A DNA stretch of 64,000 bases, from the NCBI RefSeq assembly GCF_030013205.1, contig NZ_CP122648.1; one strand, 5' to 3'. Positions 12,001-15,000 of the stretch are shown here, piece by piece; position 1 is the stretch's first letter, and every line of letters starts with the position of its first letter. The stretch comes from Escherichia coli (GTDB taxonomy: Bacteria; Pseudomonadota; Gammaproteobacteria; Enterobacterales; Enterobacteriaceae). The position numbers are program-made.

Positions 12001-15000
12001 TCGGTTTCACCGACCACATGAACCTGATAGCTATGACGGGCATTCAGGGCATCAAGTACCACCTGATTGACATCGGCAAACGTCAGTTGGATACCCGCGT
12101 CTGCCAGCAGTTTACCGATAAAGCCACGACCGATATTACCTGCGCCAAAATGTAATGCTTTCATAGTATTAACCTTCATCAATGTTTTTACCCGAGAGGG
12201 CTGGGGTGAGGCTTTTCCCTCACCCAAACCCTCTCCGTGAGGAGAGGGTAGGATTGGATTACTTACGACCTGCCAGCAGTTCCAGCACTTCATCCACGCT
12301 GGTGGTGTGTGCCAGACGTTCGATGACGGACTCATCATCCAGTGCATTGGTCAGGCTGGTGATAACCTGAATGTGCTCGTTGTTACGGGCAGCAATACCA
12401 ATTACCAGACGGGCAATGTCATCTTCTTCTTCACCGAAGCGCACGCCTTCCGGGTACTGGCAGAACACCACGCCCGTTTTCAGTACGCGATCTTTCGCTT
12501 CAACCGTACCGTGCGGCACCGCGATAGACTCACCCAGATAAGTCGGGGTCAGTTTTTCACGATCCAGCATCGCCTGAACGTATTCTGGCTCAACGTAACC
12601 GCCTTTCACCAGCTGCTCGCCAGCAAAACGAATCGCTTCTTCTTTGGTGGCCGCTTTGCGACCGAGGAAGATGTTCTCCGCGCCTAGCTTGAACAGGTTA
12701 GCACTGGAATCGTCAAAGCTGTCTTTCAGACTGTCTTTCACTTTCACTTCGTTTTCAGTATGGCGCTGAGCAGCAACCAGACGTTCGGTCAGGCTGGTGT
12801 ACAGGCCGCTGTCGAGGAAGTTGGTCAGCGAAATATGCTGTGCCTGCGGAACCTGGCGCATAGCGCGTTCGGTCAGGTCACGGTGAGTGATGACCAGGTC
12901 CACATCTGGCGGCAGGTTGTTGATCGCGCTGTTAGTAACAGAAATCTGCGACAGACCTGCATCCTGAATTTTCTTACGCAGCACACCTGCGCCCATCGCA
13001 CTGGAACCCATACCGGCATCACAGGCAACGATGATTTTACGTACGTGGCTCAGGTCGTTAGTCACATCGCCTGCAGACAGCGGAGACGCACCTTTAGACT
13101 CAGCTTTCATGTCCTGCATACGACGAGTTGCTGCTTCAATATCATCTTCTTCTTTCACTTTGCTGGTTTTCAGCAGAATGGCAGAGACAACGAAGGAGAC
13201 AGCTATCGCCGCACACACACCCGCGATGTTAGCGAAGTATGCACCTTTTGGTGTCATCGCCAGTACAGCAAGGATAGAGCCCGGAGATGCCGGAGAAACC
13301 AGACCACCGCCCAGGATAGTCAGCGTGAACACGCCAGTCATACCACCGAGGATAACGGCCAGAATCAGACGCGGATTCATCAGCACATACGGGAAGTAGA
13401 TTTCGTGGATACCGCCCAGGAAGTGGATGATTGCCGCACCGCCCGCAGACTGTTTAGCGCTACCACGACCAAAGAACATGTACGCCAGCAGCACGCCCAT
13501 ACCCGGACCTGGGTTAGCTTCAATCAGGAAGAAGATGGATTTACCCAGTTCATGGGACTGCTGAATGCCCAGCGGCGAGAAGATACCGTGGTTAATGGCG
13601 TTGTTGAGGAACAGGATTTTCGCCGGTTCAACAAAGATAGACGCCAGCGGCAGCATGTCATGGACAACCATGAAGTTAACGCCCGCAGCCAGCATTTTGG
13701 ACAGGGCTTCAACAATCGGGCCAATGCCGAGGAATGCCAGAATAGCGAGGATCATCCCGATGATGCCTGCGGAGAAGTTATTCACCAGCATCTCAAAACC
13801 GGATTTGATCTTACCGTCTACCCAGCGGTCGAAGTGCTTAATGCACCAGCCGCCCAGCGGACCTGCAATCATAGAACCGAGGAACATCGGCATGTCTGCG
13901 CCGACGATAACGCCCATGGTGGTAATGGCACCGACTACGCCGCCACGTTCGCCGCCTACCAGCTTACCACCGGTATAACCGATCAGCAGCGGCAGGAGAT
14001 AAGTGATCATCGGCCCGACCAGCTTCGCCAGCGTTTCGTTCGGTAACCACCCTGTTGGAATAAATAACGCGGTGATGATACCCCACGCGATAAACGCGCC
14101 GATATTTGGCATCACCATGTTGCTGAGGAAACGACCAAAGCTTTGCACTTTGATCTTAATATCGGATGACATAAAAACACCCCTTCTTATGTTTGCTGTC
14201 GCGCAGGCTGGAAGCCCGAGGTTTTTTGTTAATGTGGCGGCAGAGGTAGCCGGACCTTGTAGATACTGCGAAATCTGGCACTGAATCGGTTAACTGTCCA
14301 GTCGACGGCCTTTTGTGTGATATCAGTCACATAAATATAGGGGGTAGAGAGGTAATTGACGTGATGCTCATCACAAAACTCTTGTGTAAAAAAGCAACAA
14401 GGCGGCGATTTTCGCTAAAAATGGCATTTAAATGTGAGTGATGTCACATTTTTGTTTTGATGGTTTGTTGAATTTTTGTGATCTGAATCACAAGATATTT
14501 TCTTACGGCGTTCACCTGATGTGATCTACAGCATGTTATGCCTTCGTCATGAAATCGTTATGTAACTAAGCAACTCATCACCTCTTAAAATTATTCTTTG
14601 GTGTTATGGCGAGAATCGCGAACCCGGATTATTGTCAAAATATCAGCCTGACTCCCTTCTGGCTGCCAGCCAAAAAACAACACCGATAAACGTGAATCCG
14701 AGGCAGATATGTTTCTAAACTATTTCGCGTTGGGAGTGCTGATCTTCGTCTTTCTGGTGATTTTTTATGGAATCATCGCGATACATGACATCCCTTATCT
14801 GATTGCCAAAAAGCGCAACCATCCCCATGCCGACGCTATTCATACGGCGGGCTGGGTGAGCCTGTTTACTCTGCATGTTATCTGGCCGTTTCTGTGGATC
14901 TGGGCGACGCTCTATCAACCGGAGCGTGGCTGGGGTATGCAGTCACATGTTACGTCGCAGGAGAAAGCGACTGACCCGGAAATCGCCGCACTTTCTGACC

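What the first reader, a model, noticed from the sequence alone, without database searches (positions are those of the whole stretch)
14173..14708. Multiple CRP-type palindromes in the mtlA control region
Two perfect TGTGA-N6-TCACA sites (14433-14448 and 14477-14492) plus at least two half-sites lie in the 536-bp region upstream of mtlA, divergent from yibI. This fits the strongly catabolite-controlled mannitol operon and shows the regulatory region is intact.
Basis: seen in the sequence. Interest (0 to 1): 0.3.

Follow-up and report, generated by a model that had tools for sequence, protein, structure and literature searches.

The report
Known five-site CRP array upstream of mtlA
This is the well-studied E. 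coli mannitol-operon control region, intact in this strain, with five binding sites for the sugar-sensing regulator CRP at exactly the published spacing, so it is real but ordinary.

Summary
The 536-bp mtlA–yibI spacer holds three perfect TGTGA-N6-TCACA palindromes, not two: 14316-31, 14433-48 and 14477-92. These are the only three in the 64-kb window, where 0.05 are expected by chance. It also holds a 9/10 site (14360-75) and a 7/10 site (14520-35).

The site centres lie 44, 73, 44 and 43 bp apart. This matches the five experimentally defined K-12 sites CRP5 to CRP1 at -58.5, -102.5, -175.5, -219.5 and -262.5. The alignment to K-12 has no gaps, and none of the 12 substitutions in the spacer touches a pentamer arm. 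MtlR is 100% identical to K-12 and MtlA 99%.

The mechanism is published. CRP activates a weak extended -10 promoter. MtlR has no DNA-binding domain and represses by bridging CRP dimers 43-46 bp apart. A match to the Cra consensus lies in the promoter spacer.

My survey of 79 mtlA upstream regions shows 44-73-44 unchanged in 40 of 45 Enterobacterales and nearly unchanged in some Vibrionales and Aeromonadales.

Verdict: already known, low interest. The modest residue is the deep conservation of the 73-bp gap and excess variation in the N6 centres.

The parts
14313..14334 (-). CRP5, the promoter-proximal CRP site (core 14316-14331, perfect TGTGA-N6-TCACA). Its centre at 14323.5 corresponds to -58.5.
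   Evidence: 15.8 bits, rank 3 in the window. Position by gapless homology to K-12 and PMC13421365. Essential for mtl expression in K-12.
14357..14378 (-). CRP4 (core 14360-14375, CGTGA-N6-TCACA, 9/10). Centre 14367.5 corresponds to -102.5, 44 bp from CRP5.
   Evidence: 13.3 bits, rank 4. Published position. Essential in K-12.
14430..14451 (-). CRP3 (core 14433-14448, perfect; the full 22-mer is AAATGTGAGTGATGTCACATTT). Centre 14440.5 corresponds to -175.5, 73 bp from CRP4.
   Evidence: 20.7 bits, the best site in the window..
14474..14495 (-). CRP2 (core 14477-14492, perfect). Centre 14484.5 corresponds to -219.5, 44 bp from CRP3.
   Evidence: 16.2 bits, rank 2.. Essential in K-12.
14517..14538 (-). 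CRP1 (core 14520-14535, TGTGA-N6-GCATG, 7/10). Centre 14527.5 corresponds to -262.5, 43 bp from CRP2. A weak site, dispensable in K-12.
   Evidence: 10.3 bits, rank 16. (7 of 10 conserved bases; the mutant behaves like wild type). Detected (>=9 bits, 41-43 bp upstream of CRP2) in only 15 of the loci, all Enterobacteriaceae-type.
14295..14300 (-). Inferred -35 hexamer, TGGACA on the mtlA strand.
   Evidence: Read. Placed from a start site at 14265, which follows from CRP5 being at -58.5. Conserved in Enterobacteriaceae in the gapless alignment. The assignment is my inference.
14272..14280 (-). Inferred extended -10 element, TGcCAGATT (TG at 14280-14279, hexamer 14277-14272). The weak core promoter fits dependence on CRP.
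   Evidence: Only 8 of 12 matches to the sigma-70 consensus, so it was not reported by the scan. TGnCAGATT and TGnTAGAGT fall in the same columns across Enterobacterales.
14280..14293 (+). Sequence matching the Cra (FruR) operator consensus, ACTGAATCGGTTAA. It lies in the spacer between -35 and -10, at about -15 to -28.
   Evidence: a perfect match to RSTGAAWCSNTHHW (a consensus I recalled from memory), with 0.56 expected in the window. A Cra site in the mtl promoter region is stated in PMC13421365. Binding was not tested here.
14173..14265 (-). mtlA 5' untranslated leader, about 93 nt, starting at the inferred transcription start at 14265 (+/-2).
   Evidence: Start derived from the published site positions. 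No unusual RNA fold (z = -0.16). No Rfam match.
14385..14400 (.). Conserved T/A tract with flanking TGT...ACAC, inside the 73-bp gap between CRP3 and CRP4 (+ strand GTGTAAAAAAGCAACA). Role unknown.
   Evidence: Gapless alignment of 21 genera, columns about 157-172. No function was tested.
12259..14172 (-). mtlA, the mannitol PTS enzyme IICBA. It is the first gene controlled by this region, and its IIB domain sequesters MtlR.
   Evidence: 634 of 637 residues identical to K-12..
10429..11016 (-). mtlR, the repressor without a DNA-binding domain that docks on paired CRP dimers.
   Evidence: 195 of 195 residues identical to K-12 MtlR..
14709..15071 (+). yibI (DUF3302), the divergent neighbour that bounds the region.

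Best explanation
The region is the operator-promoter of the mtlADR operon, unchanged in architecture from E. coli K-12.

Shown in the sequence here: a weak promoter on the - strand (TGGACA, 17 bp, TGcCAGATT; start near 14265) is preceded by five cAMP-CRP sites centred at -58.5, -102.5, -175.5, -219.5 and -262.5.

Taken from published K-12 experiments: CRP bound at CRP5 acts like a Class I activator. CRP2, CRP3 and CRP4 are also needed for full expression, with CRP2 and CRP4 essential. When mannitol is absent, the MtlR dimer, which cannot bind DNA itself, bridges two CRP dimers whose sites are 43-46 bp apart (CRP4/5 and CRP2/3) and blocks activation. When mannitol is transported, dephosphorylated EII-Mtl (MtlA) pulls MtlR to the membrane and the operon is induced. 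Dephospho-HPr competes for MtlR, which restores repression when glucose is present.

Inferred: a Cra site in the promoter spacer adds a minor layer of repression. Transfer of the K-12 mechanism to this strain is also an inference, resting on identical geometry and identical MtlR.
For: Sites and statistics: three perfect palindromes, the only ones in 64 kb. There is also one 9/10 and one 7/10 site. Four of the five are the top four matrix scores in the window.

Geometry: centre spacings of 44/73/44/43 equal the published K-12 values.

Homology: the alignment to K-12 has no gaps. It shows 12 substitutions in 536 bp, none in a pentamer arm. The region is present in 5404 of 5426 complete E. coli genomes.

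Partner proteins: MtlR is 100% identical and MtlA 99% identical to K-12.

Published experiments on K-12 (PMC13421365): gel-shift supershifts that depend on spacing, chromosomal site mutants, and a crp deletion that abolishes expression. The yibI-mtlA spacer was the second most abundant clone in a genomic SELEX for CRP (PMC3105977).

Independent phylogenetic footprint: 44-73-44 is exact in 40 of 45 Enterobacterales loci. Firmicute mtlA loci have no site cluster (at most one weak, isolated hit). The distance from CRP5 to the start codon varies from 145 to 190 bp, so indels are tolerated in the leader but not within the array.

Cra: a perfect consensus match inside the promoter spacer.
Against: Nothing in the sequence argues against it. 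The limits are these:
- No binding or expression data exist for this strain.
- The start site is transferred from a 1983 S1 mapping in K-12, by way of the 2026 paper.
- The weight matrix is my own approximation, not a curated one.
- At -58.5, CRP5 sits 3 bp closer to the promoter than the canonical Class I position (-61.5), so the activation geometry is not textbook.
- How the distal sites activate transcription, and how MtlR represses once docked, are still described as open in the 2026 paper.
Confidence: 0.93

Rival explanations
1. The array is purely a multi-site CRP activation device, the classical 'strong catabolite control' view. On this reading, MtlR docking on CRP pairs seen in vitro is irrelevant in vivo, and the 44-bp spacings are conserved for activation geometry alone.
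For: Mutating CRP2, CRP4 or CRP5 abolishes expression, so the sites are needed for activation regardless of MtlR. The promoter-proximal 43/44-bp pair also occurs in lineages where MtlR reportedly cannot form the ternary complex, such as the V. splendidus group.
Against: Gel-shift supershifts appear only at 43-46 bp spacing. The effect can be transplanted into the malK operator by lengthening its spacing from 34 to 44 bp. MtlR has no DNA-binding domain, yet it represses only mtl.
Confidence: 0.08
2. The distal sites (CRP1, CRP2) also, or mainly, control the divergent yibIH operon. That would make this a shared bidirectional control region.
For: CRP sites commonly lie between divergent genes. 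Shimada et al. note that both yibI and mtlA lie downstream of the CRP-binding sequence. CRP1 is centred 181 bp from the yibI start codon.
Against: No consensus promoter for yibI was found. CRP1 is weak, dispensable and restricted to some lineages. One E. coli strain carries an IS21-family insertion between CRP2 and CRP1. CRP2 is essential for mtl expression. No data on yibI regulation were found.
Confidence: 0.12
3. The palindromes are a chance cluster, or remnants of a repeated or mobile element, with no regulatory role.
For: None beyond the trivial point that short motifs recur. A 31-nt direct repeat at 71% identity (14368-98 versus 14544-74) was reported.
Against: 0.05 perfect sites are expected in 64 kb and three were found within 177 bp. 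Register is conserved across the whole order while the spacer sequences diverge. Repeat finding returns only the CRP sites themselves. Binding has been shown experimentally in K-12.
Confidence: 0.01

Closest known systems
E. coli K-12 mtlADR operator-promoter (five CRP sites; Ramseier & Saier 1995; Lee et al., NAR 2026, PMC13421365)
   Same: The flanking genes are the same and the alignment has no gaps. All 50 pentamer-arm bases are identical, and the spacings (43/44/73/44) match. The inferred -35 and -10 elements and the sequence matching the Cra consensus are identical. MtlR is identical.
   Different: There are 12 substitutions in 536 bp. Five lie in the N6 centres of CRP3, CRP4 and CRP5 and one in the flank of CRP2. 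Downstream, the 135-bp REP insert in the K-12 mtlA-mtlD spacer is absent here.
CytR-CRP repression complexes (for example deoP2)
   Same: A repressor works by protein-protein contact with two DNA-bound CRP dimers, which turns an activator scaffold into a repression complex.
   Different: CytR has its own DNA-binding domain and operator between the CRP sites. MtlR has none and reads only the spacing between the sites.
malK (malEp-malKp) multi-CRP region
   Same: Several tandem CRP sites upstream of a sugar-transport operon, forming a Class III style nucleoprotein structure.
   Different: Its CRP2 and CRP3 are 34 bp apart. MtlR does not bind unless that spacing is lengthened to 44 bp.
lac P1 Class I CRP promoter
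   Same: A single proximal CRP dimer upstream of the -35 element helps recruit RNA polymerase. CRP5 probably acts this way.
   Different: The lac site is at -61.5 (from my own knowledge), whereas CRP5 is at -58.5. Unlike lac, mtl also needs the distal sites.
Vibrio cholerae mtl control region
   Same: CRP-site pairs 43-44 bp apart upstream of mtlA. My scan finds 44-73-43 in V. breoganii and V. fortis.
   Different: V. cholerae adds the antisense small RNA MtlS and has lost sequestration of MtlR by EII-Mtl. No Rfam RNA was found in this window's region.

Membership tests
cAMP-CRP binding site | A 22-bp two-fold symmetric site with a TGTGA-N6-TCACA core | tested here: met
   Three sites match 10/10, one 9/10 and one 7/10. 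They rank 1, 2, 3, 4 and 16 among all positions of the 64-kb window with a consensus-derived matrix.
cAMP-CRP binding site | More sites than chance would give | tested here: met
   0.05 perfect sites expected in 64 kb, 3 found. Shuffles of the region gave at most 2 hits at >=10 bits, against 5 observed.
cAMP-CRP binding site | Physical binding by cAMP-CRP | not testable with these tools
   Shown for the K-12 sequence, whose pentamer arms are identical, by gel shift and genomic SELEX. The DNase footprints of Ramseier & Saier 1995 are cited but could not be read here.
CRP-dependent (Class I/III) promoter | Sites at activating positions relative to a mapped transcription start | tested here: met
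   Gapless homology to K-12 places the centres at -58.5, -102.5, -175.5, -219.5 and -262.5. The start site itself was not mapped in this strain. The distance from CRP5 to the -10 element is conserved across Enterobacterales.
CRP-dependent (Class I/III) promoter | Weak core promoter that needs an activator | tested here: met
   TGGACA, 17 bp, CAGATT gives 8 of 12 consensus matches, so it was not reported by the consensus scan, which requires 9 of 12. A TG extended -10 motif is present. The hexamer assignment is my inference.
CRP-dependent (Class I/III) promoter | Transcription depends on crp/cAMP | not testable with these tools
   In K-12, the crp deletion and the CRP2, CRP4 and CRP5 site mutants lose mtl expression and fail to grow on mannitol.
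MtlR-CRP anchoring operator (Lee et al. 2026) | Adjacent CRP sites 43-46 bp apart, centre to centre | tested here: met
   CRP4-CRP5 is 44 bp, CRP2-CRP3 is 44 bp and CRP1-CRP2 is 43 bp. The required range is given.
MtlR-CRP anchoring operator (Lee et al. 2026) | A cognate MtlR encoded in the operon, with E. coli-type dimer geometry | tested here: met
   mtlR at 10429-11016 encodes a protein 195/195 identical to K-12 MtlR. The geometry is therefore inferred to be identical; it was not modelled here.
MtlR-CRP anchoring operator (Lee et al. 2026) | Formation of the ternary MtlR-CRP-DNA complex and its release by EII-Mtl | not testable with these tools
   Shown for K-12 proteins and DNA. MtlA here is 634/637 identical to K-12.
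Cra (FruR) operator | Match to the Cra consensus, overlapping the core promoter | tested here: met
   ACTGAATCGGTTAA at 14280-14293 matches RSTGAAWCSNTHHW perfectly and lies between the -35 and -10 elements. I recalled the consensus from memory. A Cra site in the mtl promoter region is stated. Binding was not tested.

The most novel reading that the evidence does not exclude
The four strong sites and the promoter may form one rigid nucleoprotein scaffold, not just two independent 44-bp pairs.

The 73-bp gap between the pairs (about 7.0 helical turns) and the 161-bp span from CRP2 to CRP5 are invariant in 40 of 45 Enterobacterales. They vary by only 1-2 bp in some Aeromonadales and Vibrionales. 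The one clean exception, Edwardsiella, is shorter by exactly 10 bp, which is one helical turn. The gap also contains a conserved T-tract/ACAC element.

This would imply phase-locked cooperation between the two CRP pairs, such as a loop or wrap, possibly with an extra factor or an intrinsic bend in the gap. The 2026 paper only speculates about this.

Separately, the N6 centres of the sites are hypervariable within E. coli (9 of 30 positions versus 32 of 456 elsewhere in the spacer). That might reflect tuning of CRP affinity or bending.
Probability: 0.3. Interest if true: 0.35.

Novelty: already known. Interest (0 to 1): 0.12.

Why it matters
For annotation, it confirms that this strain carries a complete, K-12-type mannitol regulatory module: five CRP sites, a weak promoter, a Cra-consensus site, and intact mtlA, mtlD and mtlR. 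Normal catabolite-controlled, mannitol-inducible expression is therefore expected.

For biology, nothing new is claimed about E. coli. The sites were footprinted in 1995, and their spacing logic (MtlR anchoring on CRP) was published in 2026.

The small added value comes from the cross-species survey done here. It extends the spacing conservation from the four extra species analysed in that paper to more than 50. It also shows that the 73-bp inter-pair gap and the distance from CRP5 to the promoter are as constrained as the 44-bp pairs. That gives a concrete, testable handle on the open question of how the distal sites activate transcription.

Tried and rejected
- Rfam scan of 13900-15000 at E<=1 found nothing, so there is no known small RNA or leader element and no MtlS-like antisense RNA.
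- Folding the 106 nt from the inferred start (the ~93-nt mtlA leader plus the first 13 nt of mtlA) gave z = -0.16, so there is no evidence of a structured element.
- The sigma-70 consensus scan did not report the mtlA promoter. Its only hit (14166-14193, + strand) overlaps the mtlA start codon on the wrong strand and is at chance level. The terminator-like hit at 14294-14308 is also at chance level and overlaps the -35 region.
- Repeat search looked for an origin by duplication or a mobile element. Only the CRP sites pair with each other. The 31-nt direct repeat at 71% identity (14368-98 and 14544-74) has two copies, no conserved register with a CRP site, and is probably chance.
- A possible sixth CRP site in the 73-bp gap was suggested by a 9.2-bit hit in Citrobacter FP75, 28 bp from CRP3. 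The equivalent E. coli sequence (about 14402-14423) has no CRP arms, so I rejected it.
- I checked Aliagarivorans (84-bp gap) as a 'one turn longer' variant. An extra strong site intervenes and the distance between the pairs is 131 bp, so it is not a clean example.
- Figge et al. 1994 (PMC205122) is not held in the library. Ramseier & Saier 1995 could only be cited through PMC13421365.
- By eye I tried Fis and IHF consensus matches to the conserved T-tract. They were unconvincing, so I make no claim.
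Full report
**What is in the sequence**

The stated interval 14173-14708 is exactly the spacer between mtlA and yibI. 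mtlA lies on the - strand at 12259-14172 and encodes 637 aa. yibI lies on the + strand at 14709-15071.

A search for TGTGA-N6-TCACA finds three perfect matches in the whole 64-kb window, all in this spacer: 14316-14331, 14433-14448 and 14477-14492. Shuffles give a mean of 0.05 and a maximum of 1.

With mismatches allowed, 14360-14375 (CGTGATGCTCATCACA) matches 9 of 10 core bases. 14520-14535 (TGTGATCTACAGCATG) matches 7 of 10.

The spacer has 4 TGTGA and 4 TCACA pentamers, against 0.49 and 0.34 expected. I built a 22-bp weight matrix from the CRP consensus; it is my own approximation, not a curated matrix. With it, the four best sites of the entire window are these four (20.7, 16.2, 15.8 and 13.3 bits), and the fifth ranks 16th. 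No shuffle of the region gave more than 2 hits at >=10 bits, against 5 observed.

**Identity of the region**

The spacer is found in 5404 of 5426 complete E. coli genomes, always on the chromosome. It is 100% identical to the spacer of strain O139:H1 W13-16. There the neighbours are annotated as mtlR, mtlD, mtlA | yibI, yibH, as in K-12 MG1655.

Alignment to K-12 has no gaps. It shows 12 substitutions in 536 bp: none in any pentamer arm, five in the N6 centres of CRP3, CRP4 and CRP5, and one in the flank of CRP2. MtlR is 195/195 identical to K-12 and MtlA 634/637.

**Comparison with mapped sites**

A 2026 Nucleic Acids Research paper (PMC13421365) summarises and extends the classical work: the S1-mapped start of Lee & Saier 1983 and the five CRP sites of Ramseier & Saier 1995. 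It places CRP1 to CRP5 at -262.5, -219.5, -175.5, -102.5 and -58.5, with spacings of 43, 44, 73 and 44 bp.

The centres in the window are 14527.5, 14484.5, 14440.5, 14367.5 and 14323.5. They reproduce exactly those spacings.

This places the transcription start at about 14265 on the - strand. From there I infer a -35 element TGGACA (14300-14295) and an extended -10 element TGcCAGATT (14280-14272). That is only 8 of 12 consensus matches, so the generic promoter scan did not report it. This is the weak core promoter expected when an activator is required.

A perfect match to the Cra consensus, which I recalled from memory, lies in the promoter spacer at 14280-14293. This agrees with the Cra site reported for the mtl promoter region.

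**Mechanism (published for K-12, inferred here by identity)**

- CRP is essential for expression: a crp deletion does not grow on mannitol.
- Chromosomal mutation of CRP2, CRP4 or CRP5 abolishes expression. CRP3 contributes. CRP1 is dispensable and poorly occupied.
- MtlR has no DNA-binding domain. It supershifts CRP-DNA only when two CRP dimers are bound 43-46 bp apart.
- That property can be transplanted into the malK operator by changing its spacing from 34 to 44 bp.
[quoted passage not shown] - The yibI-mtlA spacer was the second most abundant clone in a genomic SELEX for CRP.

The number of sites therefore reflects a docking platform for the repressor as well as catabolite activation.

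**Independent test by comparative genomics**

I fetched 80 loci encoding MtlA relatives from one-genome-per-species contigs. I scanned 700 bp upstream in the 79 loci that have upstream sequence.

- The last three spacings are exactly 44-73-44 in 40 of 45 Enterobacterales loci. These include Escherichia, Citrobacter, Enterobacter, Klebsiella, Serratia, Yersinia, Pantoea, Erwinia, Pectobacterium, Hafnia and Budvicia.
- Of the five exceptions, Providencia and B. diplopodorum have 44-72-44, Photorhabdus has 44-72-43, and Edwardsiella has 44-63-44, which is 10 bp or one helical turn shorter. The fifth is a 60%-identity locus in Brenneria with no sites at all; it may be a paralogue, which I did not test.
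- Aeromonas, Tolumonas and some Vibrio and Photobacterium species have 44/45-73/74-43/44.
- Pasteurellaceae and Orbaceae representatives keep the proximal 44-bp pair.
- The Firmicute loci (Bacillus-type and relatives) have no site cluster. Four of them carry a single weak hit (9.1-10.5 bits) and the rest none.
- In a gapless alignment of 21 genera, the CRP arms and the -10 region line up while the inter-site sequences diverge. The distance from CRP5 to the start codon ranges from 145 to 190 bp. Insertions and deletions are therefore tolerated in the leader but excluded from the array.
- CRP1 passes the 9-bit threshold at 41-43 bp from CRP2 in only 15 loci, all of them Enterobacteriaceae-type.

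**Within-species variation**

Among 10 diverse E. coli copies, no indel falls inside the array. The only one is a 1-bp deletion at 14587 in UTI89. One arm substitution occurs, in CRP3 of a divergent strain.

Polymorphic columns are enriched in the N6 centres: 9 of 30, against 1 of 50 in the arms and 32 of 456 elsewhere (Fisher p = 3e-4 for N6 against the rest). Much of this tracks two main haplotypes, so the number of independent events is small. I record it as unexplained.

One strain, GPEC1054, carries an IS21-family element inserted between CRP2 and CRP1. This is compatible with CRP1 being dispensable.

**Other checks**

There is no Rfam match. The leader has no unusual fold. No repeat structure exists beyond the CRP sites themselves.

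**Verdict**

The feature is real and far above chance. It is the already characterised mtl operator-promoter in intact form.

Novelty is 'already known' and interest is low. The only residue worth noting is the order-wide invariance of the 73-bp inter-pair gap with its conserved T-tract, and the fixed distance from CRP5 to the promoter. The 2026 paper does not analyse these points. They suggest a phase-locked higher-order complex, and spacing mutants could test this.

Noticed in passing
window 14316-14535, N6 centres of the five CRP cores: Among 10 E. coli copies, the six central bases of the CRP cores are polymorphic at 9 of 30 positions, against 1 of 50 in the pentamer arms and 32 of 456 in the rest of the spacer (Fisher p = 3e-4). 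Much of this follows two main haplotypes, so there are few independent events. Unexplained.
   Followed up: partly
window 14385-14400 (and the AACAAA at about 14463-14468, between CRP2 and CRP3): A T7/A-tract flanked by TGT...ACAC inside the 73-bp CRP3-CRP4 gap is conserved across many Enterobacterales genera. So is a short AACAAA just on the promoter side of CRP2. No known factor could be assigned.
   Followed up: partly
L083 (E. coli GPEC1054), equivalent to window ~14508: An IS21-family element (istA/istB, ISSso4-like) is inserted between CRP2 and CRP1. It separates CRP1 and yibI from the rest of the mtl control region.
   Followed up: partly
window 12165-12258 (mtlA-mtlD spacer): The spacer is 94 bp here and 229 bp in K-12. 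K-12 carries a 135-bp insert of REP-type palindromic units that this strain lacks.
   Followed up: yes
window ~3020-8275 (- strand) and ~8319-9002: Between lldP and yibL lie a 5.2-kb gene for a YadA-like trimeric autotransporter adhesin and an adjacent pseudogene with an internal stop. K-12 has no genes annotated between yibL and lldP.
   Followed up: no
window 16668-22156 (- strand): An RHS element core protein (1376 aa, 18026-22156) is followed by a small hypothetical gene and an Imm57-family immunity gene (16668-17189). This is an Rhs toxin/immunity locus next to yibH. Its layout differs from the K-12 annotation of this neighbourhood.
   Followed up: no
window ~26358-28086: An IS1 transposase gene lies directly after selB. 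It abuts a truncated gene for a TRAP transporter large permease subunit, adjacent to yiaM and annotated as partial (missing its C-terminus), which suggests an IS1-associated disruption.
   Followed up: no
L047 (Edwardsiella hoshinae), upstream of mtlA: The CRP array is 44-63-44. The inter-pair gap is exactly 10 bp (one helical turn) shorter than the 73 bp that is almost invariant elsewhere.
   Followed up: partly
window 15538-15551, 30891-30904, 38456-38469: Three further perfect matches to the Cra consensus RSTGAAWCSNTHHW occur in the window (4 in total against 0.56 expected). The first lies inside yibH. None was examined.
   Followed up: no
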